Positions 26,369 through 64,000 of a stretch of 64,000 bases of DNA are shown one piece after another. Numbering within the stretch: position 1 is the stretch's first letter; each line of letters begins with the position of its first letter. The DNA is taken from NCBI GenBank assembly GCA_000004985.1, contig GG738848.1; one strand, given 5' to 3'. The DNA is from Naegleria gruberi (lineage: Eukaryota). The notes beneath the pieces are model-generated. The model was not told the DNA's origin. It searched no databases and was given only the letters and a program-made list of their open reading frames with translations. Position numbers and translations under genes: made by a program.

Positions 26369-26394
26369 CTAATTTAAGGAGGCAAAAGGTTAAG

Positions 26395-26467
26395 TGGAGA
26401 TGCGGGGTATCGATCCCCGTACCTCTTCCATGCTAAAGAAGCGCTCTACCATGTGAGCTACATCCCC
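26395..26467 (-). tRNA. tRNA-Ala (anticodon AGC)
   Basis: Minus strand reads GGGGATGTAGCTCACATGGTAGAGCGCTTCTTTAGCATGGAAGAGGTACGGGGATCGATACCCCGCATCTCCA. Cloverleaf with G3:U70-type acceptor, anticodon loop TTAGCAT and T-arm GGGGATCGATACCCC. No encoded CCA. Confidence 0.85.
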
Positions 26468-39600: not shown

Positions 39601-40404
39601 CTCATGTCACTCACTGATTATTTCAAGATATTTGAGAAGGAAATTCCAGATATGAATGTCAATACTTGGCTAGTAGATAGTACTAGACCAGAGGAAACTG
39701 TATTCATGGGTAATCAATCTTGGAAGGGAAGAAGTAGAGAAAAGAAAACTACATCATTACCACTTGTTGCCTTTGTTCCACGAAGTGATATTGAAAAGGA
39801 AGTTGTTAATCCAAATGAAAGTGATTCCAAAAAGTCATTCTTGTTGACAAAGAATGGAGCTGGAAGGCTTTACTATAGAATTGCTCTTTCATACACTCCT
39901 GAAGAATTGGTTCTCAAAGCTCTTGATAAAGGATTTTCAGTTTCCAGAGTTTACGAAGCAATTACCAACCCAGATGATGTCAAGTTTGACAAGTCAACAA
40001 AAACATGGAAGGTAAAATCAGGAGAATTAGTCAGAGTAACAGTTACGATTTGCAATCCAACCAGAAGATACAATGTAGCCATGGTTGACAAGATGCCAGC
40101 AGGTTTCGAAGCTGTCAATCCAGAACTCGATACACAATTTACTGATTTTGGAAATAGTGGCAATGAAGAAGATTTAGCAAACAAATACTATTACAAATGG
40201 TTCGAAAATCAAAACATTAGAGATGAAAGAGTTGAAGCATTCAGCAGAATCTTATATGAAGGCTCCCACGTTTACAGTTATATATGCAGAGCTACTACGA
40301 TTGGATCATTTGTTTCTCCTCCAGCTTATATCGAAGAAATGTACTCTCCTGAATGCTTTGGAAGAAGTAAGACTGAGTTTGTGCAAGTTTATGATAAAAA
40401 ATAA
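33604..40404 (+). CDS. Giant alpha-2-macroglobulin / thioester-containing-protein-like protein (2266 aa), single exon
   Basis: Thioester-like PYECNEQ (CxEQ) followed by TED-type RQRYDGAFSYW. Many MG-like beta-rich repeats upstream. A Cys-rich insert at 37735-37915 sits where a bait region would be. Poly-Gln N-terminus with no signal peptide. Confidence 0.65.
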   Translation: MSQQQQQQQEEEIDPTLLNYRNLTLYVKKGESKDVVSALIRENESSSQSSSSEDIQNNVEEAFSKTVDESTFRIEELDEESLEKLLAELLKDQDDQEVSIQQNYLMREQSLKPPEPGTVEIKQQVEFPPKLDQLETAINSVGNYLAEKATENKKQETNFKIIRSVPTGKQNSEISSVPFISITFSHDMIEEFDGEPKSFEEIDFVEISPVTENVKEGKWKWIGTKSLVFQPRFRFDRSNEFTYKILKEKTKSVFGNTIEEDLVVTFKTPTSRTLSVIPSSTSFPISELPFIFLQFDQDMDKQSVLAHLSITVSSKSIGVEVLEETSIISKMLEDLDYAKKFPYVFGSYNRCLQGTYDPKRCMWLKLHIANETLHAGKDYPKIGLGEYLSILLKKGYKSLEGPIPSAHEYSTGIYGYSKMAVNYHYPKKHLFYNDIYPGCSFTFSFNNPIDLDKIESIETFVQVEPAIKNYKVTCNGNSIVISGDTLAREKYRVKILKGVPDIYNQSLENEYEATFEVSGEDREFNMTLSNSTIMPPCLFDSQDPFLYFDSVNIQETHVIINQVDPVEMYKESSFPKLAAKTVFNSYDNYDYFDWYPRKPHKIGKEVFDQKVKPDNFVKDRTVSTKIMLSQYLQNGKTGSLLVHIKPKRSILYNLFNGYETKWIQVSNLCADIISITGEKAAVFVTDFSTGKPVPNATVTLSYSTNNTPTKDEDLNIISTSETTNENGMAFFSYSRNYHTVLIISKDQDQVVYTNPTIYSHSIRTDTISAHIFNDRGLYKPNENVHIKGFLRDIKYNYEKGSENYGTYSIREPSTETKATYEVQDSRGVKYLDGKIELSPSGSFVLDLTVPDNANLGSHSLTICYGSRKFNHTFNVQEFRTKEYTVSSSIIPSSDKVDLFIGDKLVNKVSAKYYSGGGLSNSQVNYQFNTEPATFNPEGWSNYVFQDTDLRNNYKLNTLIENMKSKYQVYQSFNSATDPSGDDHAFMQLWDPEKIVTGPISINCKANVQDINRQTQGTSSEVILHSCKYYVGIRCTKRVVMKSDENIDCFFIVTDIRGKIVKDIPISVKLVKFGYDSRGYERWETTKPIKEINLTSQSQPLLHTFTLNENTNDTAYGEYAILCEVKESERPKFRSGINRCSIPIRKFGFKEHLTSKGYTSLSTNSLELISNKFETDEYEPGEEAKVYIVSPFNGECSGFAWVLCNGLIKEERFDITNGIHELTIPIKKEYRPNIQVRVQLFGTENYIDVDDKPRVNPAHATGSLTLNISKTEHELTVTVTPKDPILSPGKETDVSILVKDKQGNNVPNCEVCLIVADQAVLDMANYSVTNPMFTFVSNNSCSVDFSSIRDRVRYWLYPRKNQRDEEILAIRQQALPSSNLCACDLAGCSGGRSRKCCEQCGECDDMAQKECKREKCCKKSCGLACFSRRCCKNSKDSYDGSRSQMPSMDDRNGVFEIRSNFKPDAAFIGFAQTDENGFAKLDFKLTDALTKFKVTAVVNAKQDMFGIGNSAITTNLPIAVRPSLPRFLNYGDLCDLTYVLQNQTDSDLTLSLVCNVSNLRIFNGKDKNQRKKGYTVVIPAMGRKEIRIPVQVLKCGKALINLGVRVVRAIAKNPEKQELADGMVGWSDAVKNDFKVFTPVTNEAFATYGDVSAESETIVQPISLPSKNLLAHFGEFTVSTSTTALSTLTDSLIYLYSYPYECNEQIASKILGIVCMKEMILQFYTPEELQRLMEISGEEEVNTFINSNLARLFDRQRYDGAFSYWDSKLIGDPFLTCHVALCFAKCKSEGYKIPDQILSRTKSILKNISSLFFFGFLWPRCIKDTIKSYAYYILSLLAESESDKGQVISLCEGILDHYNSITELTQELSPETAAYLAMAIHKCKKEPVTEEKKGFFAKFTKEKITIHQWLDAIKSYFKENVTIDSGIYAHFITRYEDNELAQMVMLHSNTRTDAVVLGCLMEIDREDSSDIIQKLVRSLLAARNANRYGRWYNTQENSICLMSLTDYFKIFEKEIPDMNVNTWLVDSTRPEETVFMGNQSWKGRSREKKTTSLPLVAFVPRSDIEKEVVNPNESDSKKSFLLTKNGAGRLYYRIALSYTPEELVLKALDKGFSVSRVYEAITNPDDVKFDKSTKTWKVKSGELVRVTVTICNPTRRYNVAMVDKMPAGFEAVNPELDTQFTDFGNSGNEEDLANKYYYKWFENQNIRDERVEAFSRILYEGSHVYSYICRATTIGSFVSPPAYIEEMYSPECFGRSKTEFVQVYDKK
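33608..33632 (+). repeat. CAA trinucleotide run encoding poly-Gln
   Basis: (caa)7 at the start of the A2M-like ORF. Confidence 0.9.
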
Positions 40405-48432: not shown

Positions 48433-50514
48433 TTATTTTCTATTTGATAGGATTTTCTTTACAGTTTTGTTATCTGAACTCAAAACGAGATCAGGAGCAA
48501 TGTTCAGAACAATATCACCAGTAATTCCTTGTTTTACAATATAATTCTCTTGCGCTAATTTTTCAGTACTATCTGCAATTTCAGTAAAGTTACTTCTGAA
48601 ATCGTCATCAAGTATCTCTTCATATTTTCTTCTAAATTCCTCAGAGGTTATTTCTCCATTAAACTTTTCCTTCTCAGATGCAACACAGCAAAGTATGACA
48701 AGTACTTCAATTGTTGTCTGACCTAATCCTTTTAGTATATCCAATTTTCTGCTAAATTGTGTATTTACAAGTTTTATCAGCTTACTTGTATCCAAGGTAT
48801 GAGCAATTGGAATCAAGTGAGTTTCCACAAATGATTTAATTTGTCTCATATCATGTTTGTTCTTTAAGAGACCCATCATTTTCTGAATCATATCTGCTGA
48901 AATCTTGTGCTTGTATTCATGAACAAGGATTGAGGTAATATCATCCTGTTCATACTGATTAAATGCCAAAAAGTTAATACCTGGATTCTTTGGTGGATCG
49001 TTGGTGATGGCCAATATTATTACTTTAGCCACTCGAATTTGTTCCAGATATTTGTTATGCTTGCTATATGAAAATTCATCAAGTAAGATGAGTGCTGGTG
49101 TGTGCTTCTTATTGAAATACTCCAATAACTTGGTGATTCTCTCTTGCTTCTTTGTTGAATCTGTTGATCGAGTGTAAACTTTTTCATAGAGCCTATATAT
49201 CAAATCAGATGCTTTTTCTGAACCAGCTAAATTCAATTGATACTTTTCCAAACAAGATGCATCAAATACTGAAGTTGTTACCATTGTTTTTCCTTGACCA
49301 TTAGTTCCGTAAATAAAAAGCACATTCTTTTGGGGATTAAAATCTTCATAACAGTTTTGGATAAAGTTAATTATTGTATCACATTCCTGCTTTCTTGAGA
49401 ATACTTCAACGTTTTGATTAAAGATTTTTGGTGATGATTTTTGTTTCTTTAGAGAAGATTCAAAAGGATGTTTCTCTTGTTCTTCTTCTCTTTCTGTGAC
49501 TGGAAGCTTAGCAATTGTCTTTCTTCTTGCTTGTCTTTGTTTTTTTGGAACTATTTCAATCTCGTCTTCAGATAGTAATGGTTCTTCAGTTTTCACAACC
49601 AAATCTTGTGAATCCTCAACTGGTTCAATTTTGACTTTTTGTCTGCGTCCTTGCCTAGATTTAACAGGAACAGGTTCTAATACTTCTTCTTGTGGTTGTT
49701 GCTGTATCTCATTAACAATAGGCACACTAGTTGAGGGTGAAACAATTTCTTGTGAATCTTCGGCTACTGTTGGAGGTACTGTTTCGTCTTTCGTTTCTGG
49801 AGTGATGCTAATAGTAGGTCGGGCTTGCCTCTTCTTTGTTCTAGTTTTAACAGATGCATGAATTACAGGGGATTGAATGTTGTTGGTAGTAGTATTCGAA
49901 TTGGATTGTTGTGATGAACTAGTTTCTTGAATTGGAGATTGTCTAACTAGATGAGTTTGAGGAGGGGAAAGAGGTGAAATTGATGGAGGCATCATTGGAA
50001 TTGAATGTTGACTATTGCTGTATGGACTTTGTGATAATGAGCTTTCGACTGGCATATTTCTCATTGGTGTTGAAAAGCTTCTAGAGGTTGTTGGACTGAA
50101 AAAGTATTCTCTTGTTTGATTAACAGATGTAATATATTGATCTCGATCCATAAGATCGATTTCTCTTTGTTCTGGTGGTAGTAATAAGAGTTTCTTCCAC
50201 AGCAGTCTATATTGAGTATTAGAGGTAATTTTAATGTCCTTGTTTGTTTTAATATCGTGAAAAACAATCACAAATTTACTCCTATCAACATTAGGATCAT
50301 CTATCACTTCCGACATTAAAAATTGTCTTGTTGATTCAATATCGGAATTTTCTTGTAATAGAGTTGTAGTTACACCATAATTTAAACACGATAGAGTGAC
50401 TTCCATTTCATCGGTAACACTATCATCAATCATGGAATGATCGGACAGAAGTGATGAGGAGAAAGAAGAGGTTTGTCTCCTTGTTGATGTATCTGTGATG
50501 TGTTGTTGACTCAT
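48433..50514 (-). CDS. Cdc6/Orc1-family AAA+ replication-initiation ATPase-like protein (693 aa)
   Basis: Walker A YGTNGQGKTMV and Walker B ILLDEFSY. Many S/T-P sites in the N-terminal half. C-terminal winged-helix-like region. Confidence 0.62.
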   Translation of the reverse strand: MSQQHITDTSTRRQTSSFSSSLLSDHSMIDDSVTDEMEVTLSCLNYGVTTTLLQENSDIESTRQFLMSEVIDDPNVDRSKFVIVFHDIKTNKDIKITSNTQYRLLWKKLLLLPPEQREIDLMDRDQYITSVNQTREYFFSPTTSRSFSTPMRNMPVESSLSQSPYSNSQHSIPMMPPSISPLSPPQTHLVRQSPIQETSSSQQSNSNTTTNNIQSPVIHASVKTRTKKRQARPTISITPETKDETVPPTVAEDSQEIVSPSTSVPIVNEIQQQPQEEVLEPVPVKSRQGRRQKVKIEPVEDSQDLVVKTEEPLLSEDEIEIVPKKQRQARRKTIAKLPVTEREEEQEKHPFESSLKKQKSSPKIFNQNVEVFSRKQECDTIINFIQNCYEDFNPQKNVLFIYGTNGQGKTMVTTSVFDASCLEKYQLNLAGSEKASDLIYRLYEKVYTRSTDSTKKQERITKLLEYFNKKHTPALILLDEFSYSKHNKYLEQIRVAKVIILAITNDPPKNPGINFLAFNQYEQDDITSILVHEYKHKISADMIQKMMGLLKNKHDMRQIKSFVETHLIPIAHTLDTSKLIKLVNTQFSRKLDILKGLGQTTIEVLVILCCVASEKEKFNGEITSEEFRRKYEEILDDDFRSNFTEIADSTEKLAQENYIVKQGITGDIVLNIAPDLVLSSDNKTVKKILSNRK

Positions 50515-50780: not shown

Positions 50781-53700
50781 ATGTCTTCTGAGGGATCATC
50801 ACTACTTGAAGGCTATTTCCACAAACAAGGACAAGGTGCTACCGGAGCCTCATATAAAAGAAGATGGTTTAAAGTGTATTCTGATCGGATAGAATACATG
50901 GTTGGTCCTAAAGATAAAAAGATTAAGGGTGATGTAAAAACATTAGATATGATTAGACTTGAAGATGGTTTTCATGGTCCAAATCAATTTAAAAATTATG
51001 GATTATCTCTTGTTACTGAAAGTAGAACATATAAAATTTGTTTTGAGGATGTTGTTACTAGACAAAGGTTTAAGGAAGTTGTTACAAAATTAATTCCTTC
51101 TACCGTCATACATCATGAAGAAAAACAAGATGACGATATTGATGATGATGAAGATATGCCTACTTTTGATGATAGTTCGGAAGAAGGTTTTGATGATTTG
51201 GAAATAGATAATTTTGATAAGGATAATGAAGAACACGAAGGTAAAGAAGATGAAGGATTAATGGACGATGGTGATGAAGAATTGGAAGTTAAATCCCATA
51301 TAGATATAAAAACAGATGATAGCAGGATGATCAAAAACCCTCTAATTCCTGATTACTTGGTAAGAGAAACTCCTTTTGGGTCTGTAAATAGTGATGATAG
51401 CAATAATTTCTCGAGTGGTGATGAAAGTTTTATGCCATCTACAAAAGATGATAAGAAGCATCTCAACCAAACTCCTCCGTCACAAGAATTAAAAATTAAG
51501 GAAGATTGGAGCGATTATAGCGATTATAGTGATGATGAGACTCTTCAAACTTCAAGACAAGAAGAACCAACAAACTCTACTGAGGAGGAAGTAATTATTA
51601 GTTCCCAAATTGAAATCCAATCGAAACTTCTTTTCCCTGAAAAGGATGTTGACGAATTACTGGAAGACGAAGAAAAAACAAGAAGAGAAACAAAAAGTTC
51701 AGATCACAAACAGGTGTCCTTGTTAAGTGAAGATAATCTTAATATAGGATCTTACAAGCATTTCATTGAAAGAATGACAGAACATGGAGAATCTGAAATC
51801 TTATGGAGTGGTTCTGTAAGAAAGGTGGTAAGAGGAAAGGTAAACAAGTTTGACGAAAGAAGTTTGGTTGTCACGAAATCAGCACTTTATCTTTTAACTG
51901 CAAAATCAAAAGGACTTGAATTCAAAGCCCGAGTTACATTCAGGGATATTTCTTCTCTTCTTATTAATGCATACGAAACAGAAGAGAAAGACTTCTTATC
52001 AATTTTGATCACAAACCCTGCAATCAACAATGGACATGATATGTTACTTGCATTCAACGATAATAGAGAAAAGTTTCTTGCTCATATCAAGAATGCGTTT
52101 GAGCAAAAAATGCTTAAGGAATTAATTGTCCATCTTGTTGATGACGTGACATTATATACAAGAACAAATAGAGCTGAGAGAAAGCCAATACCTCAACCTA
52201 TTTCCAAGGAAGATATCGTAACTTCAACAGATCACGATTATGCAAACTTTATTGTATCAGCAGATTGGAGATATCTTCTCAAACAATACGGAGACAGACA
52301 TATCTATTTTAGCGAGGAAATGTTAGTTAATAACACAAAACATGCTATTTTGATAACAAACTTGGCATTAATCAAAACAACAGACGCTAAAGTAAAAAGA
52401 AGAATAGAACTTGTTGATATATCAGAGATTTGGATTGACAATGCTGCCAAAGAAAACCTTCTAATCAAAGTACCTTCGGAGTATGACATATTTATTTCAA
52501 CAGCAAAGAGAAATGAAGCTGTTTCATCTTTACAAGAAGCTTTGGAAAAGTTAAAGGTAGACTTTAAACTTATTCAATCAGTAAACATTAAGGAAAAAGG
52601 TCAATTAAAGAAAACTGGAGATTACAGACAAAAAATGAAAAAGATGAAGGATCCAAAGAGAATTAAAGATCTAATGACACACGCAATTAAATCAAAGGAT
52701 GTTAGTGAGCTTGAAAAAGCAATTTGTAGCGCAAGAATATATGGATTAACAAACGATAAGCTGTATATCTTGTGCCTTCAACAAATACAAAAGATCAAGA
52801 CATCATCGATGGTACAAGAGGAGATGGAAGATGCCTATAAAAATTGTCATCTTAAGAAAATGAGAGAGCTTTTAAAGAAGGCTGAATCATTACGTCCACA
52901 TCTCACCCAATTGATTCATGTGATGACTCCTAAGTATACTGAACTTGTTAACACTAGGTTATTCAAAAAGAAAATGGAAGAAGCTATCAGTAAGAAGGAC
53001 TTTAGAATGATGAAGGATATATTTTCCAAAGCTCTTAGAGCTGGCTTGGCAGGTGATGTTGAAAAATACAAGCGAGATTATGATGCAGATGTACAAAAGG
53101 AATATTTGAGAGATCTGGTTTCTCAACATTTAGCTAATAGGGATGGAGACGCTCTTCGTCTTATTCTTATTGATGCTAAAAGTCTAGGCGTGGAAAATGA
53201 GAAAATTTTCCAAGAAGCTAAAAATTCAGTTTTGTTATTCAAAGAAGAAACTAAAATCAAAAGAAGATTAAATAAGGGTGTTGACGACGCTAACGACATA
53301 GGGAATATTGAAAAGTTGAGGGAATTGATTAAGGATGCAAAGGCCTTTGTTTCTACCAATCCTTCTATTTCACTCTCGAATACTATTGATTTTTGTAATA
53401 AGGAATGTGATAGAATCCAACAACGATTTTCTATTATTGAAAAGATAGATGAAGCCATCATGAAAAGAGACAAATCAGCAATTGATGAAATTATTGAGAG
53501 CAACAAACTTGATGATAGGTTGGATTTAACAAAAGCATATGAATGTCTAGATCACATCAATACTGATAGAGAACAAGAACAATTGGCAGCTATTTACAAG
53601 CTGGAAGAAACTCTTGATTCTCTGATTGTACTATATGACCATGAAACAACACCTGATAATGAAATCAAGTTGATGCAAATTATTGTTGAAGCAGAAATGT

Positions 53701-55540
53701 TTGTTGAATTGGGAGACTTGGTAGATTCTGCTAAAAATCTCATTCAAAAGAAGAGAATGGAAGCAAAGAGAAAGGAAAGAAAAATTCTCTCAATCAAATA
53801 TAGACTTGCTCAAGGTATTAAGGAAAGAGATATAGATGATCTTGAGACTGTTCTTGAAGAAGGACCATTTTATCCTGAATTGGCAACAGAGGTTCAAATT
53901 GCTAAAGAAATGTTAAGTGAATTATATCTTCATACACACGTTAAGGAAAATATCGTGGTGGTACCAGCTTTAACAGAAAAGGTTGAAAAGAAGGAAAATA
54001 CCTCAACTGGAAAATTCGAAGCCTTCCTAAAGAGTGCTCATATGTCCTTAGGAAGTGTTGAAAAGAGTGTTGAAGTCAAATTAGATTTTGAAGAATTGTT
54101 AGAAAAGAAGGATATTGTTGCTCTGGCTAAATTTATCAATAAGAATAAGCAGTTACTTACAAAAGAAGAAGCACAAAGAGCAACAGAAGTTATGGAAGAG
54201 TTATCATTGCCAAGTGCAACACCTGCAACTGCCACTGAATCATCAAAAGAGGAACTTCAAAAGAAGACAAAACCATTTTCATTCAACACAATGGTTTCAT
54301 CTCTCCATAGTAATATTATGAACTTGCTTAGTACTTGTGATGCAGACTCTATTGATCCAACATCAGGAAGATATGTTGTTCACTTATTCCCTCTTGGTGA
54401 TATCATTGTTAAGAATATTACATCAATTTTATATAATGGAACAAGAGTAAGTAGAAAATTTACTAACTTTGAAATCTTATCATTCATTAGAAAATTTATT
54501 GGATTAAAGAAAGAACACCATATGACATTTTTAAAAATCTTCAGGTTAGTGCTGTACAAGATGTAATTAGAGAATTTGAAGCCTTGGATCAAGTTCAACA
54601 TTTACCAAGTGATAACTTTGGAAAGACTGCTTCTCTTCTTCTGGTTCAATATTTACTTGATTGTGACTTCTTTGTTTATGCAATCAATCAATTGGCAATT
54701 GATGAAATGTACTTGCAAGAATGTTACGATAAGACTGCTATTTTATTTAACAAACAACTCAAAGATGAAATTTTGGGTGTATTCTCATTGCTCAATCAAT
54801 TTGATTTCCGTTTTGGATTTACCAAGGAAGTTGACGCAAAGGATGTTGCTTCTGCTAATATAGATCCACTTGCATCAACACAATCTGGCGTATCAATCAC
54901 GCAAACAGCTCAACCAAGTTTAAGTTTACAATTAACTTCAAGTACTTTGGACATGATTTCACTTTCACCTTTACTTCAATTGAAACAGTCAATCAAATCA
55001 ATTGTTCAGTTCTTCTATATGAAGAAGAATGATGAAAAGATGGATTTATATGATATTGGTGATGATTCAAAGAGTAGAGAAATTGATGTTCTTATAAGAA
55101 AGAAGCTTTGTTATTCATTGATGGATATTTTCTTGAAAGGATTTAAGAGTTTCTCAATATTCAAGACCTACCATGTTTGGAATGTGATTGAAGAAGCTGC
55201 AAGACTGAAAAAGTCATCTGCTGTTGATATTGGTGGTATTGGTATTCCATCGGCTGTTGAAACTGTTAACAAGATTGTTGAAGAGAGATTATCTTTAAAC
55301 ACCAAACAATTATCAAACATTGAAGATCTCAAGTTTAGAATCTTTGTTTGTTACTCATTGAATGATAATCAATTATCATACTTTATTCAATCTATTTTGA
55401 GAGAAAGTGATTTAATTAATAATTATTATGAAGCTGATTCATTGATAAGAAATTCCAACATTAGAGAAAAGGTGATTGGTTTCTTATCCAAGTTGGACAG
55501 ACTTCCATTTAACCTTTCTTTAACATCTGAATTGTTGTAA
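50781..55540 (+). CDS. Large PH-domain protein with acidic region and C-terminal RUN-like domain. Two exons: 50781-54544, 54571-55540
   Basis: N-terminal PH domain (EGYFHKQGQ…RRWFKVYSDRIEYM…YKICFED). Long in-frame ORF. The second ORF continues in frame if a 26-nt ag|GTTAGT…AATTAG intron is removed. An assembly frameshift is the alternative. Confidence 0.55.
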
Positions 55541-55558
55541 ATAAAAAATACCTAGATG

Positions 55559-58500
55559 TTAAATGTGATACAATTCGTGAATCATGAAAAAGTATTCAAT
55601 TGGACAATATAATTTGAGTTTTCGTACCATCTCTTCATCTAATTTGATCGTTATCAATAAATCTCTACATTGATTGATAATTTCAAATAATTGTTCAATA
55701 ATGAAAGGTTTTAAATGTTCATGTTCCATCAAATCAATAAAAATTCTCATTCCTTTCAAAATTTCATCAGAGGCAACAGAATTTAAACTCAACGAGCTTA
55801 TAGTTCCATTACTATTGTTATTGGAATTTTGAATCAGAGAAGTTTCATAATTATAAGAATGATTAATGGATTCATTCTTCAATGCAGTAATATCATTTAG
55901 AACATTAAATCTACTTGTTATTGTTTCTAATCCTAAACGAACAATTTGATGTTCCATACATGGTTGTATTAAACCTTTCAATACTTGATTAGGAAAATAT
56001 GAAATATGAGTTGTAACATTAGAATATCCAAAATTTAAAGAATCAACAATTAATGAAGATGCAGCACTAATATTTCCAAATAAACTTGTTAAGGTTGATT
56101 TACGTCTATTGTTAGATTGTCCAGATGATCCAATAGTATTATAATTACCAGCATTGCCACTATTATTTGTCTGTTGTTGAGAATCTTGAGAATTAATATT
56201 ATTATAAATTGAATAATTTGGAAACATGGCACTTGTTGGTGAATTCATTCCTCCTCCAACTCCACCACCCATAAATGTACCACTATTATTATTGCTATTG
56301 CTTGTAGTATTAGAAGTAGGAGGATATAACAAGTGAGAAAGTTGAACTGTCCACTCACTAATATTCACACCACTATTATTCATTCCACCAACACTACTAA
56401 CATTACCAAAACTTCCACCTATACCACCTATATTATTATTACTTGAATTATTATTACTACCACCACCTATATTACCAATATTATTATTATTACCAGTATT
56501 AATATTATTATTACCAGTATTATTAATATTATTATTATTATTACTTGAACCACCATTAAAAGATTGTGAAGTTGTTGCAATTAATCTTTTTAAAATTGTT
56601 TGTTCAAATTCTTCTTTTTGTTGTTGATTAGTTCCAAATTTAATGAAATGAAAAATGTGATTTAATAATTTTTGAGTATTTGAATTTAAAATAAAAGAAG
56701 AAATTCCATCAATTAATTGTCTTTCAATAATAGTATTACTAAATAAAGATAAAGTATTAACATTTGATAAATTTTGATCTTTTCTAAAAATTTCATTTAA
56801 ATAAAAACAAGCATAAAATCTAATTATAAAAGGTTGATTTCCATTTTGAATTAAATCCATAAATCTTTTTATAACTCTTTCAGATGAAATTGGTAAAATT
56901 GATAAAACTTTAAAAGTTTTAATAATTAATTCATTATTAATTTCATAATTATTTCTATTATCATCATGAATAAATAATAATAATAACATTGATAAATTAT
57001 TTAATAATTGTTCATGTAAATTATTTTTAATATTTCCATTTTTAGTAGTAATATTACTATTTATAGTATTATCATTATATTTATAGTAATTAATTAAATA
57101 TTCTTTCATAATTTTTAAATAATGTTTATAAACAAGTAAAAGTAAAATTGTTTGTTTAAATTCAGATAAAGGTTGTTGTGAAATTCTAATTAAAGATTTA
57201 AATAAAATTGATAATAAATCACAAAATATTCTTTCTATAATAATTGGAACTCCTTTACATGTAATTGTATAATTTCCATATATAGGTAGTAATTTAGTTA
57301 CTATATATAGACATGATAAATGTTGTTCTAAATTAAAATTTTGATCAAAATAATATAATTCTATATTTGTAGGTATTGAAGCAATTCCTTTTTGTTCATT
57401 ATTATCTAATAAATTTGGTAATAAATATGAAATACATAATTTTAAAATATGTGAAATTTTACCATTTGAATTTAATTCTAAAAATTCAAATTGATTTAAT
57501 AAATTTTTATGTGAAATTTCCATTTCTGTATTATTATTACCATTTTTATCAGAATGAGAAGAAGAACAAGATGATGATGATGAATCTGAAATATCATCTG
57601 AAATATCATCTTCATCTTCTGAATTTACTATATTTGTTAATAAAATTGTAATTGATTTTGCTAAATTTAAAAATCTTGGAATTAAATAATTTTTTTTAAT
57701 TAAAATATATTCCCTTTTTAAATATTGATCATTTTCAATTTGTAAAATATATTGATTATTATTAATATTATTAAATAAATTATTTTGATTATTTAAAATT
57801 CTTTCCATAATTATTAATAAATGAATTTCCTTATTAGTAGAAATAGTTTCAATTAATTTTACAAAATTTAAATCTAAAGAATTTAAAATACAATTATCAA
57901 TAATTGATAAAATACTTGTTTTAGAATTACTATTTATAGTAAAATTAAAAGGTACATAAATGGAAATTAATTTACTCATGTAAGATTCATCTTGTTCAAA
58001 AATATCAATAAATTTAATTAAATGATCATAAAATAATTTGTTAAATTCAATTGAATTATTATAAATTTTACCTAAAAAATTAAAATTAATTAATTTTTTA
58101 AAATCATCCATAATTTTATCTAAAATTAAATTATCAATAATTAAATTTAAATTTAATAATTGTAATAAAAAATTAGAACAATTAATTTTTTCATTATTTT
58201 TATAATTTTTAAATAAAAAATTATATAATTGATAAACAATTTTATAACTATCATAACTTGTTTTAGATTCCAAATTTGGAGAAATAAATTCATCTGGATT
58301 TATATTTTGAATTATATTAATTAAAGTTAAAATTAAATTAAATAAAATTATAATTCCTTCATCATTTTTATAATTATTAATTAAAATTAATAAATCATTA
58401 ATTGACTTTTTTAGTAATTTCATATAAACATTTAAAATTTGTCTATTTTGTATAATTTCTATATTTGAATTTAAAATAATTAATAATAAAAATGGTGTTG

Positions 58501-59418
58501 TATTATAAATATTTAATAATAAATTACTCATTTGTTCAAATAAATAATTTAATTGGCAATGTTCAATTAATTTAGTAATTCCAAAACAAGTATGTACATA
58601 ATTAGAAATATTAAAATTTGTAATATTAAAAAAATCAGAATCATTAAATTCACTTAAATTAATTGGTTGTGATAATTTTAAAGAAGGTGTAATTGACCTT
58701 CTAAAAATAGATTTTGTTTTCTTTTTTTCTAAATTTATAATTAAATCTTCAGAAATTTTCTTATTTTTTAAAAAATCACTTAAAATTTCTATAAATGTAT
58801 TTGAATTTAAATCATTATTATTAAAATAACTTGTTTCATTTTTAATTAAAATTCTTAAAGCAATTTGTTGAATACTTGTATATTTAGAAGTAACTGCCCT
58901 TTTTAGATATTCTCTATATATAGTTTCAATTTCTTGTATATCTTTTAATTCTCCATTTATATTATTAAGAACATTACTTCCATTTATATTATTATTATTA
59001 TTATTATTAGTAGTATTATTAGTAGTAGTGGATGATGATGATGGTGATGAATTATTCCATAAATTACCACTATTAGATTTATTAGATGATAATCCATTTA
59101 AAATACTACTTGTATGATTATTCATACTATTATATTGTCTTGAATGTTGTTGTTGTTGTTCTTTCTTATTTCTTATATTCATTATATTCATTATACTATT
59201 ATTACTATTATTATTATTATTAGATCTACTACTATTATTTTTAAAAGAATTAGAAGTAGATGATAAATTATCAACACTATTTGAATAATTTGTTGTTGAT
59301 GATGAAATTTGTCTAAAAGAAGATAATTCATTCTTTCTTCTAATTTGATTTGTAAATTGTTCAAGTTTATCCAATGATAAATTTCTAATTAAAATTCTTT
59401 CAATAATTAATTCTTCAG
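55559..59418 (-). CDS. C-terminal portion of giant Asn/Ser-rich protein-kinase gene (continues across the assembly gap)
   Basis: 1271-aa ORF, open in frame right up to the N-run. Asn/Ser homopolymer tracts and a Leu-rich helical region. Confidence 0.6.
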
Positions 59419-59468
59419 NNNNNNNNNNNNNNNNNNNNNNNNNNNNNNNNNNNNNNNNNNNNNNNNNN
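59419..59468. other. Assembly gap (run of 50 N) inside a coding region
   Basis: Literal n characters. The ORF is open on both flanks. Confidence 0.99.
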
Positions 59469-62400
59469 AAATTGTGGTAAATATCCTAATAATGGAAATT
59501 GTTGTGATGCAATTTGATGATCATCTTCATAATATTGTTGATAAATAAAAACTAATTGTCTCCAAATTAGGCGATACAATTGTGGTCTTTCAGAAAAGAA
59601 ATCATCGGGTAATTTTCTAAACTTTTCAATTTTGGAAACTGATAAATATTCTGCTAAATCTAACATGAATTCCATAAATTCATTAGATGTTAATATTTTT
59701 TCCTTTTTTGTAAATTGTTCAATATTATTAAAGGAAATTCTCTTTCTTTCATCACTTTCTTTTAATGAAAGTCTATTTCCACTACTATTATTATTATTAT
59801 TAGTAGTAGTAGTATTAGTAGTAGCACTACCTCCTCCACTATTACTATATATACTTGAATTTGAGATAACACCACCACTTGAAGAATTTGTTTGATTGTT
59901 AAATAAATTCAAATTCTTTGAATCTCTTTTACCCATTGAAAATCTTAAACTTCTACTTCTGACACGTCCACCACCAGCACCAACACCACCACTAGATGTT
60001 GGTGTTCCACTACCACCTACATAATTAGAAGTAAAAACACCAGTACCAGCACCACCACTATTAGTATTAGTATTATTTGGACTAATACTGAGTGAATGAG
60101 CCATAGCAGTATTGGAATCAGATGAATTTGGTATTAAAGTGGATGGAGTATTAGATGCTGAATTAAATACATCACTATATTGTTGTTCAATATTAGCAAA
60201 TAAAGAAGGTGTTACAACAACAACAAGTGAATCAGTTGATGAATCATAATCCATATGAGTTGATTGTTGTTGCTGCTGTTGTTGTTCAGATCCTCTTCTA
60301 AAGAATGATTGTGAATGATGATGTGATGATTGATTCATTCCAATACTATTATTACTATTAACATTTCCAAATAAATAATTATTAGATGCCAAATTACTTG
60401 GTAATAAATTCAAATCAGATGAAATGTAAAATTTGTTTAAAAATTGTTCTAACATCATTCTAATTGGTATTTCATTCATTTCAATTAAACTATTACTAGT
60501 ATTAGTATTACTATTAGTAGTATTAGTATTATTACTAGTATTATTAGTAGTAGATTCAATATTTTCCTGTTGTTTGAGTGCAAAATAATGAGCAAATGAT
60601 GGAATTCTAGCAATTTCCAAATATCTAAAATCATATTCATTCAATTCATTAAATAAAGTATTATATAAATTTAATGATCCACTATAATTCTTTTTATCCT
60701 TATTCTTTTTAACATTTGAATTGGCATTAATTGAAGAAGAAGAAGTGGATGATGAAGAATTTGATTGTCCTGAAACAATATTTCCTAAAATATTTGATAA
60801 ATTAGTAGAAATGAATAAATTAGGAGGAGGTGGAGCACAATTTTGTAAAAGAGATGAAATATTATTAATACCCATTGATTGAATATCAATAGTTTTTAAA
60901 ATATAATTATAATGTTGTGATTGATTAAAATTTGGATCTAATGGATGTTGTTGTTGTTGCTGAGTAAAATTTTGATTTTCAATAATATAAATGGTATTAT
61001 TTGTTAAATTTGATAATTGTGACATGATATTAAAATATTCTTGACCTTTAAAATGTTGAAAATGATCAAAAATTAAAATACATTTACCATTTAAAATTAA
61101 TTGTTTTAAATATTGTTGAATTTCCTTATTAAATTGTAAATGTTGTTTTTGTAAATTGTTTGCAGTTGATGAATTATTTCTAGAATTAAATCTTGGACTT
61201 TGTGTAAAACTACCAAAATTAGAATTTGAATTTTCATTAAATAAAATATCATTTGCTAATTTTATAACATTTCCAAAATAATATTCAAAACATCCTTGAA
61301 TTATTTTATCTATAAAATCATTTATATTTGGCATATTTAATATATTTCTTAAAGATACCATAATTGGTATTTTAAATAAACTATTAGAATGATTTGATAA
61401 TAATTGATTTAATAAATTATTATTACTTGCCATATTAGAAGAATTACTAGTATTTAAAGTATAAATATGTTCCATATAATATCTATGTATAGATGAAATA
61501 AAAAATGATAAATCTGAATCTGTAAAATTACAATTTCTACAATTTAAAACATAACATATACAAAGTGATGAATATTTGTTATATTGAAAATTATCATTTC
61601 CACCTCCTCCATTACCATTTCCACTATTATTACTTCCAATACTACTATATCCACTACTACTATTTACACTATTAATACTATTATATCTATTATTAGAAGA
61701 TTGTGTACTAAATCTATTATTATTATTATTATTATTATTATTACTGATATTATTACCGATATTATTGATATTATTATTGTTAATACTATTTCTATAATCG
61801 AATGAATTTGAATTATTTGAATCAATTAAATGACTTGATTGAAATAAAAGATCAAAATTTGTATTTCTAACACCAATAACAGCACCTCTCTTTCTTGTTT
61901 TAAAATTATCACCATCATTAATATCCATTGAAAATACATTCATTGACATTCTATTAGATGCTATATTAGAATAGCATGATAATCCAATTGTAGAAGAAGA
62001 AGAGGATGATGATATTATTGAATTAGATTGATTATTCATATTAATATTATTGGATTGATTCATATTAGTATTATTAATATTGGATTGATTGATAGATGTT
62101 GAAATGGTATTATTTAAAAATGGTGAATTAAATAGTGGTGAATTATTATTAGCAACACCTGAAGAAGAATTAAATGAAGAATTTCTTGATATTGAAATTG
62201 GTAATGAAGATGCAATATTTGATACATTAATATTACTTATATTTGTTGTTGTTATTGAAGTGGTAGTGGTGGTATTATTATTATGAATATTATTATTATT
62301 AATATTATTAATATTACTATTTATAGTAGTATTATTATTATTATTATTATTTAATAAATTATTTAAACTTGATGAATGTGAAAGTTTTCTTGAAGAAGAA

Positions 62401-63664
62401 AATTGATTTGATGATAAATAATTATTTTGAGGTGTAATATAAGAAGTAATTTCCAATTTTACTTCTTTTAAAAATCGAATATAATCAAATTTTCCTTTTA
62501 TAGAAAATATTAAATTATCTTCATCTTGAATTCTTTTAAATAAATCATATAACATTACATTCATATTATTTTCATTAAATGTTTCAGATTTATCTTCTTC
62601 CTCGTTTTCATTAAAAATATTACTATATATATATAAATTACTAAAATATTCATCCTTAAATGGAAAGTTTTTACAATTTTGTACACATTTTACAAAAGTA
62701 TAAATGGAAACATTATTTTCACTATCACTTGATAATAAAGTTTTTAAAACTTTTTCAGATTTTGAATGAAAAGCAGATTTTGTAAAAAAATAATAACAAT
62801 CTTTAAATTCATTCCAAGAAACTTTGTAATTTTGAGTTCCAAACATTTGATCCCAAAAATGTCTTGCTAATCTATAAATAATATAATAGGTAGATGTAAA
62901 TTTATGTATAAATGATAATGAATTTCCTAAATTAGTATTTCCTAAATTGGATGATTGATTATTCATTAAAATATTACTTAAATTAGAAGACATGGGTGAT
63001 GATGAAATCATTTGAATATTTCTAGGTGAAAAATCTAATCCATTATTATTATTATTATTATTATTTATATTTATATTATTTATATTATTTATATTATTAT
63101 TTATATTATTATGATCTATTAAATTTAAATTATATGAAGAAATTGATTGTATTGAATCAATATCTTTTTGAATTGATTCTAATGCAGATAAAATATCTAC
63201 TTTTTCATCCATACTTGTATTTATATTTCCATTAATGGATGTATTATTACCATTAATAGAATGATGATTGTGATGATTATTATTAATATTATTATTAAAA
63301 TTTGATTCTTTTCTTTCTTTTAATAAAAAATTTAAACATTCAGTTGCATTTAATCTTTCACTTGAATCTAATCTTAAACATTTATATACCAATTTTAGTA
63401 ATATTGAATGTCCTTTATCAAGTAATAAAGTTAATAAATTAAAAGATTGATTCTTATCAATACATTCACTTATAAAATTATCAATTACTAATTTAGTTTC
63501 ATAATTATTTGAACAATTAAATAATAAATCTCTTAATGAATCAAATCGACTTCTCCTTTTTTGTACAAGTAATTGTAATGCTACTATTCCTAATGCCCAC
63601 ATATCAACTGATTCATTATAATATTTACCATCAAATATTTCAGGTGCCATATAATTTTTAGATC
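59469..63664 (-). CDS. Central exon of giant protein-kinase gene: kinase C-lobe followed by ~1350 aa Asn/Ser/Gln-rich low complexity
   Basis: …GSKNYMAPEIFDGKYYNESVDMWALGIV… (subdomains VIII-XI), then poly-N/NNI repeats. Acceptor AAAAAG|GATC at 63665. Confidence 0.65.
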
Positions 63665-63779
63665 CTTTTTTTAAAATTATTAAAATATTAAAATATTATT
63701 TATGGAAATTATTTAATATATATGGAAATTAATATATAAAATTAATATGAATAAATGAATATGAATGAATAAAACTTAC

Positions 63780-63930
63780 CTGTTATACTCATAAGAGGTG
63801 AATCACCAACTTTAAATTCACGTGTTAATCCAAAATCAGATAAATAAATTTGAGCATTTTCAATAATTTCCTTATATGATAAATTTGTATCATTTGTTTT
63901 TTTAGATTGTAATAAAATATTATCAGGTTT
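63780..63930 (-). CDS. Protein-kinase exon (catalytic loop to activation segment) of the same gene; more 5' exons lie beyond the window end
   Basis: KPDNILLQSKK…IYLSDFGLTREFKVGDSPLMSITG. GTAAGT donor (plus 63774-63779) and AATTTAG acceptor. A 115-nt AT-rich intron lies between this exon and the next. Confidence 0.65.
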
Positions 63931-64000
63931 CTAAATTATTTAAATATATTTATAAATATTAATAAATATTAATAAATTAAAAATATTAAAAATATAAAAA

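What the first reader, a model, noticed from the sequence alone, without database searches (positions are those of the whole stretch)
55559..64000. Giant protein kinase with >2500 aa of Asn/Ser homopolymer-rich sequence spanning an assembly gap
Kinase subdomains VIb-XI are split over at least two exons (63780-63930 and 59469-63664). They are followed by two very long open frames, 1411 and 1271 codons, that stay open across the N-gap on the minus strand. Stop-free frames of that length in ~85% AT DNA must be coding. The kinase N-lobe lies beyond the window end. The gap at 59419-59468 probably reflects collapse of the repeat, so the true protein may be even longer.
Basis: seen in the sequence. 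Interest (0 to 1): 0.5.

Follow-up and report, generated by a model that had tools for sequence, protein, structure and literature searches.

The report
Giant Naegleria kinase gene, under-annotated
This is one real, very large (about 3,000 amino acids) protein-kinase gene of the amoeba Naegleria gruberi; the public annotation has it a third too short because it treats the most AT-rich coding stretches as introns, and otherwise it is an ordinary kind of signalling protein with an oddly AT-rich codon usage.

Summary
On the minus strand there is a kinase exon (63930-63780), a genuine 115-nt GT..AG intron, then two stop-free frames of 1398 and 1285 codons on either side of a 50-N gap. About 131 stops would be expected by chance in each frame.

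The window is Naegleria gruberi and the gene is NAEGRDRAFT_62707 (XP_002682118.1), annotated at 2038 aa. A collinear Willaertia magna ortholog (1887 aa) runs through the gap-equivalent region as one exon. It shows that both frames belong to one gene. It directly shows that two of the five in-frame 'introns', both gap flanks and the in-frame C-terminus are coding sequence. The gap hides about 91 non-repetitive codons, so it is not a collapsed repeat.

The true protein is about 3,030 aa:
- an active-looking non-RD Ser/Thr kinase;
- a conserved middle region with no recognisable domain;
- a C-terminal ARM/HEAT-like alpha-solenoid;
- about 1,060 aa of lineage-specific Asn/Ser-rich inserts.

The non-kinase tail has no other relatives among 1.84 billion representative proteins.

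One thing is unexplained. Silent sites are 6-7% GC, against 21-30% in all 13 neighbouring ORFs, and the change falls at the gene boundary.

Verdict: a real gene of a known kind whose public model needs correcting. Interest is modest.

The parts
63931..64000 (-). 3' end of an upstream intron, with acceptor AG at 63932-63931. The rest of this intron and the exons for kinase residues 1-210 (N-lobe) lie beyond the window.
   Evidence: Stops in all frames upstream of 63930. P0001 residues 1-210 do not map to the window. GC is 14%.
63780..63930 (-). Kinase exon covering the catalytic loop (HLD-)KPDNILL, a roughly 17-aa insert, and DFGLTREF...SITG. It ends in a split Gly codon.
   Evidence: Pfam Pkinase E=9e-21 on the spliced product.
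63665..63779 (-). Genuine spliceosomal intron: 115 nt, GTAAGT...AG, phase 1, 9.6% GC.
   Evidence: Stops in all three frames. Exact ends are given. Splicing restores ...SITG|SKNYMAPE, identical to P0001 and aligned to the W. magna protein.
63318..63664 (-). Kinase C-lobe: APE, DMWALG (subdomain IX) and the subdomain XI Arg, up to ...ERLNATECLNFLL.
   Evidence: Pfam Pkinase. 61% identity to the W. magna kinase domain with all catalytic motifs invariant.
60396..62921 (-). Conserved middle region (about 440 aa in W. magna) interrupted by Asn/Ser/Thr-rich inserts. No recognisable domain.
   Evidence: 48% identity over aligned columns. The 'intron 2' segment 62601-62822 is 58% identical to W. magna, E=4e-26. 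No Pfam or PDB match. The AF2 model was unusable at pLDDT 38.
59469..59759 (-). Conserved helical block just before the gap (…RISFNNIEQF…LIWRQL…GYLPQF).
   Evidence: Aligns to W. magna 1003-1089. Predicted helical.
59419..59468 (.). Assembly gap of 50 N inside the coding sequence. It probably hides about 91 codons (about 270 nt) of unique sequence.
   Evidence: N run located. The flanks map to W. magna 1060-1089 and 1181-1199. W. magna is one continuous exon across this region. No tandem repeat touches the gap.
58951..59416 (-). Post-gap conserved motif (EELIIERILIRNLSLDKLEQ) followed by an Asn/Ser/Gln-rich linker.
   Evidence: The frame is open to the gap edge. The motif is 63% identical to W. 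magna 1181-1199. Low-complexity profile.
55562..58950 (-). C-terminal all-alpha ARM/HEAT-like solenoid region. It includes two Gly/Asn/Ser-rich inserts and a conserved C-terminus …YCPIEYFFMIHELYHI.
55559..55561 (-). Stop codon (TAA), 18 nt from the stop codon of the convergent RUN-domain gene at 55538-55540.

Best explanation
The region is the 3' 90% of a single Naegleria gruberi gene, NAEGRDRAFT_62707 (XP_002682118.1, UniProt D2V1V3), on the minus strand. It encodes a protein of about 3,030 aa.

Shown:
- The catalytic domain carries a 115-nt intron. After that intron, translation runs uninterrupted for 1398 codons, through a sequencing gap that probably hides about 91 codons, and for a further 1285 codons to a TAA at 55559-55561.
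- The public 2038-aa model is wrong in seven places. It splices out five in-frame, stop-free, very AT-rich segments (306, 222, 240, 1206 and 408 nt). It bridges the gap with an 'intron' that deletes conserved residues. It also replaces the conserved C-terminus with an out-of-frame mini-exon.
- From N to C the protein has four parts. (i) A divergent Ser/Thr kinase domain with every catalytic residue intact; it is non-RD, with HLD in place of HRD. (ii) A conserved middle region with no recognisable domain. (iii) A helical block that spans the gap. (iv) A roughly 700-1,100-aa ARM/HEAT-like alpha-solenoid.
- About 1,060 aa of Asn/Ser/Thr/Gly/Gln-rich inserts are absent from the W. magna ortholog.

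Inferred:
- The protein works like other kinases with an N-terminal catalytic domain and a C-terminal helical-repeat tail. The solenoid and middle region would recruit partners or substrates, or localise the enzyme, and the kinase would phosphorylate them.
- The inserts are disordered linkers produced by trinucleotide slippage, (AAT)n and similar, in a gene under extreme AT pressure.
- The very low GC3 most economically reflects a gene lying at the AT mutational equilibrium, with little or no selection for the C/G-ending codons its neighbours use. This last point is not established.
For: - Identity: 100% match to the N. gruberi predicted protein P0001.
- Coding status: 0 stops against about 131 expected in each frame, P about 1e-60. 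The five model 'introns' are all multiples of 3 and open only in the coding frame, with P(open) between 4e-4 and 6e-21. The genuine intron has stops in all frames.
- Ortholog: W. magna KAL9654569.1 scores E=4.7e-131 and is collinear over 1769 aligned columns at 46% identity.
- Ortholog matches inside disputed segments: intron 2 E=4e-26, intron 4 E=3e-19, in-frame C-terminus E=1e-18, gap flanks E=6e-4 and 1.5e-5 with 91 W. magna residues between them. The W. magna gene is one 1799-codon exon across all of this.
- Kinase: Pkinase E=9e-21. The Gly-loop, AIK, alphaC Glu, HLD-KPDN, DFG, APE and subdomain IX/XI residues are invariant in both species.
- Inserts: 25 runs of 15 aa or more, 1060 aa in total, 23% Asn and 18% Ser. 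Short (ATT)n-type arrays lie in the DNA.
- Architecture precedent: ULK-family kinases have N-terminal kinase domains and C-terminal substrate-recruitment regions, and STK36 and ULK4 carry armadillo repeats (10.1101/2020.06.18.159293).
Against: - No transcript evidence was available, so exon connectivity and the absence of splicing in the five segments rest on statistics and on one ortholog.
- Three of the five 'introns' (63033-63338, 62316-62555, 56906-57313) have no significant W. magna counterpart. Their coding status rests only on being in frame and open.
- The gap content is inferred, not seen.
- The solenoid model has low to moderate confidence (pLDDT 53, pTM 0.35), and the fold hits have low TM-scores (0.11-0.45).
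- No Pfam ARM or HEAT repeat is detected.
- The function is inferred from architecture alone.
- The low-expression explanation for GC3 is weakened: no stretch of the other 55 kb, coding or non-coding, is as AT-rich.
Confidence: 0.88

Rival explanations
1. The public 2038-aa model is correct. The very AT-rich in-frame segments would be real introns, and the protein would be a third shorter than the open frames suggest.
For: The segments are the most AT-rich parts of the gene (13-19% GC), like the genuine intron at 9.6%. Three of them are poorly conserved or absent in W. magna.
Against: - All five are multiples of 3 and stop-free only in the reading frame, with P from 4e-4 to 6e-21 each.
- Two of them, the gap-spanning 'intron' and the discarded C-terminus all contain sequence significantly conserved in W. 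magna.
- At 222-1206 nt they are far longer than the genuine 115-nt intron.
- Their approximately mapped ends do not start with the GTAAGT seen at the genuine intron.
Confidence: 0.03
2. There are two genes. A kinase gene would end inside the gap, and a separate gene for the helical-repeat protein (55559-59418) would start there.
For: The gap hides unknown sequence. The two frames differ in coordinate phase.
Against: - In W. magna both halves lie in one uninterrupted 1799-codon exon.
- Both gap flanks are conserved and collinear with that exon.
- ORF B has no conserved start. Its frame is open to the very edge of the gap.
Confidence: 0.03
3. The gene is of foreign origin. One version is a contaminant or chimeric join in the assembly. 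The other is a lateral transfer or introgression from a much more AT-rich eukaryote. The second version is compatible with the gene structure described above.
For: - GC3 is 0.01-0.14 in every 100-codon bin, against 0.21-0.31 in the neighbours, and the switch falls within the 18-nt spacer.
- No 150-nt window in the other 55 kb is below 15% GC.
- RSCU distance to the neighbours is 4.6, while each of the 13 neighbours lies 1.2-3.7 from their pooled usage. The usage is closer to W. magna genes (distance 2.0, r=0.98).
- GC1 and GC2 are also shifted, which implies long exposure to AT pressure.
- The only relative found is in W. magna. No other Naegleria protein was retrieved.
- The W. magna locus is not syntenic.
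Against: - The compositional junction lies in contiguous sequence with no N, exactly between two convergent stop codons. That would be an unlikely place for a chimeric join.
- No dictyostelid, viral or other donor-like homolog exists among 1.84e9 representative proteins or in the viral contigs. This rules out contamination from any sequenced AT-rich organism.
- The nearest relative is in the sister genus, as vertical descent predicts.
- The gene has spliceosomal introns.
- Any extreme AT bias yields similar RSCU, so resemblance to W. magna does not identify a donor.
- Translational selection on codon usage is reported for Naegleria (PMC11702301), so a weakly expressed gene could drift to very low GC3.
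Confidence: 0.1
4. The tail is a decaying, non-functional relic (pseudogene-like) that has filled with slippage repeats. Only the kinase would be functional.
For: The gene shows extreme AT drift and has gained about 1,060 aa of low-complexity inserts relative to W. magna. No known domains are detected in the tail.
Against: - 2,683 codons without a single stop at about 0.1 stops per codon expected requires ongoing purifying selection.
- The conserved blocks are 46% identical to W. magna right to the last residue.
- The inserts preserve the frame.
Confidence: 0.02

Closest known systems
Willaertia magna hypothetical protein ABK040_006633 (KAL9654569.1, 1887 aa)
   Same: It is the only detectable relative of the non-kinase tail. 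The two proteins are collinear from the kinase domain to the final residues. The kinase domains are 61% identical, with the same HLD non-RD catalytic loop and the same insert before DFG. The middle region is 48% identical, and the C-termini match (…EYFF.[IL]H[ED][IL]YHI).
   Different: - It lacks about 1,060 aa of Asn/Ser-rich inserts.
- It has a single 38-nt intron at a different position (aa 88/89) and none at the N. gruberi intron site.
- It is compositionally ordinary for its genome (GC3 0.106 against 0.09-0.24 in its neighbours).
- Its gene neighbours are different.
- It is itself uncharacterised.
ULK-family kinases with armadillo-repeat tails (Fused/STK36, ULK4)
   Same: Both have an N-terminal kinase domain followed by a long C-terminal helical-repeat (ARM) region that serves as a protein-interaction and substrate-recruitment module (10.1101/2020.06.18.159293). 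ULK1 and ULK2 are among the best solved-structure matches to the kinase domain.
   Different: - The kinase domain scores no better against ULK1/2 than against STK33 (CAMK) or NEK1/2, at 60-50 bits, so ULK membership is not established.
- The tail has no sequence similarity to any ARM or HEAT family.
- There is an extra conserved middle region of about 440 aa.
- The protein is two to three times longer.
Other kinase-plus-solenoid proteins (Cdc15/Cdc7/SepA and MAP3K-epsilon type, plant RUNKEL, SCYL1), recalled from my own knowledge and not tested here
   Same: They share the general logic of a catalytic or pseudo-catalytic kinase domain fused to an ARM/HEAT scaffold.
   Different: No sequence relationship was detected in any search. 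These families were not compared directly.
Asn-rich low-complexity proteins of extremely AT-rich genomes (Dictyostelium, Plasmodium), from my own knowledge
   Same: They show AAT-codon runs, frame-preserving low-complexity inserts within conserved proteins, and very low GC3.
   Different: Here the phenomenon is confined to one gene in a genome region whose other 13 ORFs have Asn at 3.5-9% and GC3 at 21-30%.

Membership tests
Eukaryotic protein kinase superfamily (Pfam PF00069 Pkinase) | Significant match to the Pkinase profile above the gathering threshold. | tested here: met
   The window-encoded spliced C-terminal half of the domain scores E=9e-21, 74.9 bits, against a cut-off of 31.7. P0001 and P0002 both carry PF00069.
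Eukaryotic protein kinase superfamily (active enzyme) | Catalytic residues are present: Gly-loop, beta3 Lys, alphaC Glu, catalytic Asp and Asn (HxD..N), DFG and APE. | tested here: met
   GGGIEG, AIK, DLE(Q/E)QIK, HLDxKPDN, DFG and APE are invariant in N. gruberi and W. magna. The N-lobe motifs come from P0001 and lie outside the window. Activity itself cannot be tested here.
RD kinases | Arg immediately before the catalytic Asp (HRD). | tested here: not met
   The motif is HLD in both species, so this is a non-RD kinase.
ULK / Fused (STK36) / ULK4 family | The kinase domain is closest to ULK-family kinases. | tested here: inconclusive
   The profile against PDB gives STK33 61.7 bits, NEK1 60.4, ULK2 60.1, NEK2 53 and ULK1 51, with no separation between families. 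A kinome-wide phylogeny was not possible with these tools.
ULK / Fused (STK36) / ULK4 family | C-terminal armadillo-repeat region homologous to that of STK36 or ULK4. | tested here: not met
   The exhaustive phmmer of the tail found only the N. gruberi and W. magna proteins. There are no ARM or HEAT Pfam hits. The only resemblance is at the level of fold class.
ARM/HEAT alpha-solenoid fold class | Tandem helical hairpins or triplets forming a solenoid, with structural similarity to known solenoids. | tested here: inconclusive
STAND / NACHT P-loop NTPase (considered for the middle region) | Walker A GxxxxGK[ST] and a significant profile similarity to a STAND NTPase. | tested here: not met
   There is no GK[ST] motif at the expected position (…ITKNSNFMD… / …NCRNCNFTD…). 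hhalign against the window's own NB-ARC/AAA protein gives probability 0.2%. There is no Pfam or PDB hit. Only a beta-alpha-beta secondary-structure pattern in a low-confidence model points this way.

The most novel reading that the evidence does not exclude
The gene is a true compositional island. Its silent sites (GC3 6-7%) are more AT-rich than any coding or non-coding DNA in the adjacent 55 kb. The switch falls inside an 18-nt spacer. Its codon usage matches W. magna-type genomes better than its own neighbours. Its only detectable relative is a non-syntenic W. magna gene.

Two readings would follow. The gene may have reached N. gruberi by eukaryote-to-eukaryote transfer or introgression from an AT-rich heterolobosean. 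Alternatively it may be subject to a gene-specific mutational regime. Neither would be simple relaxed codon selection.
Probability: 0.12. Interest if true: 0.55.

Novelty: new member of a known kind. Interest (0 to 1): 0.3.

Why it matters
The practical point is annotation quality. The reference N. gruberi model for this gene lacks about 1,000 residues, including conserved domain sequence and the real C-terminus, because the predictor treated AT-rich coding DNA as introns. The same error may affect other AT-rich genes in this reference genome, which is widely used for comparative work on early eukaryote evolution.

Biologically, the gene adds a Heterolobosea-restricted kinase with a solenoid tail whose middle and tail regions have no characterised relatives.

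The sharply bounded codon-usage anomaly is the only feature that could lead somewhere unexpected, such as gene transfer between amoebae or gene-specific mutation bias. It needs genome-wide context before it means anything.

Tried and rejected
**Searches and models that gave nothing usable**
- The first homolog search used the whole 1285-aa ORF. It returned only the self hit because the candidate list was saturated by poly-Asn words. Masking the low-complexity runs fixed this.
- The look-up of encoding contigs on P0001 found nothing on record, so I could not read the 5' end of the gene beyond the window.
- The third word-index search used W. magna residues 398-838. It returned nothing, not even the source protein, so it failed its own positive control and I treat it as uninformative.
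- P0003, the only extra hit of the exhaustive search (E=6e-4), is a bacterial Ser/Thr-rich repeat protein that aligns to the low-complexity linker. It is spurious.
- The metagenome scan and two viral-contig scans found no relatives.
- Pfam at E<=5 on seven N. gruberi and four W. magna tail segments gave only sub-threshold noise, such as Cbl_N2 EF-hand-like at E=0.04 and AvrPtoB_bdg at E=0.05.
- PDB profile searches of the middle and C-terminal regions found nothing.
- The AF2 model of the middle region had pLDDT 38.5, so I ran no fold search on it.
- The AFDB50 fold library was unavailable.

**Ideas rejected**
- The idea that the middle region is a degenerate NACHT/STAND NTPase is rejected for now. 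It has no Walker A motif, and hhalign gives 0.2%.
- Contamination from a sequenced dictyostelid, or a giant-virus insertion, is rejected. No such homolog exists in any collection searched, and the nearest relative is a heterolobosean.
- Repeat collapse at the gap is rejected.

**Literature**
- Searches found nothing on AT-rich or Asn-rich gene classes in Naegleria.
Full report
**What is in the sequence.** On the minus strand, an exon at 63930-63780 encodes KPDNILL…DFGLTREF…SITG. It is followed by a 115-nt intron (63779-63665, GTAAGT…AG, 9.6% GC, stops in every frame). A second exon starts at 63664 and continues …GSKNYMAPE…DMWALG…. The spliced product matches Pfam Pkinase at E=9e-21. From 63664 the frame stays open for 1398 codons to the edge of a 50-N gap (59419-59468). 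On the other side a frame is open from the gap edge (59416) for 1285 codons, to a TAA at 55561-55559. Each frame has 0 stops. Composition-preserving shuffles give a mean of about 131, the other five frames hold 63-290, and the probability of staying open by chance is about 1e-60 for each frame. No other ORF in 55541-64000 exceeds 91 aa, and there is no RNA gene there. Two details need correcting. The DNA is 78-81% AT overall, reaching 82-89% locally. The protein is Asn- and Ser-rich (16-18% and 11-15%) but has only 21 homopolymer runs of 4 or more residues, the longest being N9.

**Where it comes from.** The first 55 kb of the window is about 33% GC. Its genes are eukaryotic: PH with myosin-TH1, RUN, RGS, an NB-ARC/AAA protein and others. 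The long ORF matches a Naegleria gruberi predicted protein at 100% identity. That protein is P0001, 2038 aa, also known as XP_002682118.1, EFC49374.1, UniProt D2V1V3 and NAEGRDRAFT_62707, on a 712,659-bp scaffold. Its residues 1-210, the kinase N-lobe, do not map to the window, which confirms that the gene starts beyond position 64000.

**The public gene model is too short.** I mapped P0001 back to the window. It then removes five internal 'introns' of 306, 222, 240, 1206 and 408 nt, bridges the gap with an 'intron' (59576-59339), and ends with a 139-nt 'intron' and an out-of-frame 18-aa exon. All five internal segments are multiples of three. All are stop-free only in the reading frame, while the other two frames hold 2-80 stops. 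The probability of being open by chance ranges from 4e-4 to 6e-21. They are also the most AT-rich parts of the gene (13-19% GC). This points to a gene predictor mistaking AT-rich coding sequence for introns.

**An independent test from an ortholog.** I repeated the homolog search with the homopolymer runs removed. It found one relative, Willaertia magna KAL9654569.1 (P0002, 1887 aa, E=4.7e-131). The two proteins are collinear from the kinase domain to the last residue, with 1769 aligned columns at 46% identity. BLASTP of each disputed segment against P0002 gave these results:
- 'Intron 2' (62601-62822): 58% identity over 85 aa, E=4e-26.
- 'Intron 4' (57626-58831): 32% over 335 aa, E=3e-19.
- The in-frame C-terminus that the model discards: 48% over 66 aa, E=1e-18. 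N. gruberi ends …LKLYCPIEYFFMIHELYHI* and W. magna ends …LKQYCQLEYFFILHDIYHI.
- The two gap flanks align to W. magna 1060-1089 (E=6e-4) and 1181-1199 (E=1.5e-5).

In the W. magna genome (L001) the gene is a 264-nt first exon, a 38-nt intron and one 1799-codon exon that covers everything from the N-lobe to the stop. This has three consequences. The two long frames belong to one gene. Two of the five in-frame 'introns', the gap flanks and the C-terminus are directly shown to be coding. The gap probably hides about 91 codons of unique sequence. 'Introns' 1, 3 and 5 have no significant counterpart in W. magna, so their coding status rests on the frame statistics alone. No tandem repeat touches the gap; the nearest arrays are about 180 and 320 nt away. 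The flanks are not low-complexity either, so the 'collapsed repeat' explanation is not supported. The reconstructed protein is 261 + 1398 + 1285 = 2944 aa plus the gap, or about 3,030 aa.

**What the protein is.**
- *Kinase domain.* It is 61% identical between the two species. Every catalytic motif is invariant: the GGGIEG loop, AIK, the alphaC Glu, HLD-KPDN, DFG, APE and the subdomain IX and XI residues. It is therefore very probably active, and it is non-RD, with HLD instead of HRD. It cannot be assigned to a kinase group. A two-species profile scores almost equally against STK33 (61.7 bits), NEK1 (60.4), ULK2 (60.1), NEK2 and ULK1.
- *Middle region.* This region is about 440 aa in W. magna and 48% identical over aligned columns. 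It matches nothing in Pfam or the PDB. Its AF2 model was unusable at pLDDT 38.5. I suspected a degenerate STAND/NACHT NTPase because of strand-helix-strand motifs such as CILIFDHF and TIYIIEN. However, there is no Walker A motif, and hhalign against the window's own NB-ARC/AAA protein gives 0.2% probability. I do not claim it.
- *Distribution of the tail.* An exhaustive phmmer of W. magna residues 690-1887 against 1.84 billion representative proteins found only the two amoeba proteins and one spurious hit. Metagenome and viral-contig scans found nothing. Within what could be searched, the tail is restricted to N. gruberi and W. magna. Absence from other Naegleria species is suggested but not proven.
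- *Inserts.* Relative to W. magna, the N. gruberi protein carries 25 inserts of 15 aa or more, totalling 1060 aa, at 23% Asn and 18% Ser. These coincide with short (ATT)n-type arrays in the DNA.

**How it most likely works (inference).** The architecture is an N-terminal catalytic domain followed by long helical-repeat and other conserved regions. This is the architecture of scaffolded signalling kinases. In the ULK family, the kinase domain is N-terminal, the C-terminal regions recruit substrates and partners, and STK36/Fused and ULK4 carry armadillo repeats (10.1101/2020.06.18.159293). I infer that the solenoid and middle region dock partners or localise the enzyme, and that the Asn/Ser-rich inserts act as disordered linkers. 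Membership of the ULK/Fused family is not established. The kinase-domain test is inconclusive, and the tail-homology test is negative.

**An unexplained feature.** The gene is a compositional island. GC3 is 0.01-0.14 in every 100-codon bin, with a mean of 0.06-0.07. The 13 neighbouring ORFs have GC3 of 0.21-0.30. The convergent RUN-domain gene, whose stop codon lies only 18 nt away, keeps GC3 at 0.23-0.31 to its end. Every synonymous family is shifted: AAC is 2% against 26%, AAG 14% against 47%, and GC-ending Leu codons 8% against 42%. GC1 and GC2 are also lower. No 150-nt window in the other 55 kb, coding or not, falls below 15% GC, whereas this gene has kilobase stretches at 11-14%. By RSCU the gene lies 4.6 from its pooled neighbours, while each neighbour lies 1.2-3.7 from the pool. 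It lies 2.0 from W. magna genes. W. magna is AT-rich throughout, and its ortholog is unremarkable there, with GC3 0.106 against 0.09-0.24. The simplest reading is a weakly expressed gene sitting at the AT mutational equilibrium. Its own introns are 10-14% GC, and translational selection on codon usage is reported for Naegleria (PMC11702301). That reading does not explain why nothing else nearby is as AT-rich. Lateral acquisition from an AT-rich heterolobosean cannot be excluded, and neither can a gene-specific mutation regime. Contamination from a sequenced dictyostelid or a giant virus is excluded, because no such homolog exists. A chimeric join is unlikely, because the junction lies in contiguous sequence exactly between two stop codons.

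**Verdict.** The gene is already in the databases as a predicted kinase. What is new is a corrected structure of about 3,030 aa instead of 2038, a lineage-restricted tail, and an odd codon-usage island. It is a new member of a known kind, a multidomain kinase with a helical-repeat scaffold, and of modest interest.

Noticed in passing
window 55541-55558: The kinase gene and the convergent RUN-domain gene have stop codons only 18 nt apart, so their 3' UTRs must overlap in antisense. The sharp GC3 switch (0.23-0.31 to 0.10-0.14 and lower) falls in this spacer.
   Followed up: partly
window 50781-55540 (+), junction about 54545-54583: The PH plus myosin-TH1 ORF (50781-54566) and the RUN-domain ORF (54584-55540) are on the same strand, 17 nt apart and in different frames. 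A GTTAGT…TTAG stretch of about 26 nt sits at the junction. They may be one PH-TH1-RUN gene joined by a very short intron.
   Followed up: partly
window 48433-50514 (-): A 693-aa ORF has weak AAA_22, NB-ARC and AAA hits, so it may be a STAND-like P-loop NTPase. I used it only as a comparator and did not characterise it.
   Followed up: no
window 26394-26467 (-): tRNA-Ala(AGC) is the only RNA gene in the window by ARAGORN and by Rfam at gathering threshold.
   Followed up: yes
window 33604-40404 (+): An uninterrupted 2266-aa ORF with ordinary N. gruberi composition (GC3 0.25). I did not examine its domains.
   Followed up: no
window 30976-32904 (-): A 642-aa ORF has two copies of the YrhK-like domain (PF14145), a family I know mainly from bacteria. 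It may be worth checking as a lateral-transfer candidate.
   Followed up: no
L001 10001-15702 (W. magna contig JBEGDK010000040.1): The W. magna ortholog has a single 38-nt intron in the N-lobe (L001 10265-10302, aa 88/89) and none at either N. gruberi intron position, so intron positions are not conserved. Its neighbours (an ATG16-like gene and RINT1/TIP1) differ from those in N. gruberi, so there is no synteny.
   Followed up: partly
P0001 residues 43-63 and 95-123 (outside the window): The N. gruberi kinase N-lobe also carries Gln/Asn- and Ser-rich inserts that W. magna lacks. The low-complexity insertion process has therefore reached the catalytic domain itself.
   Followed up: no
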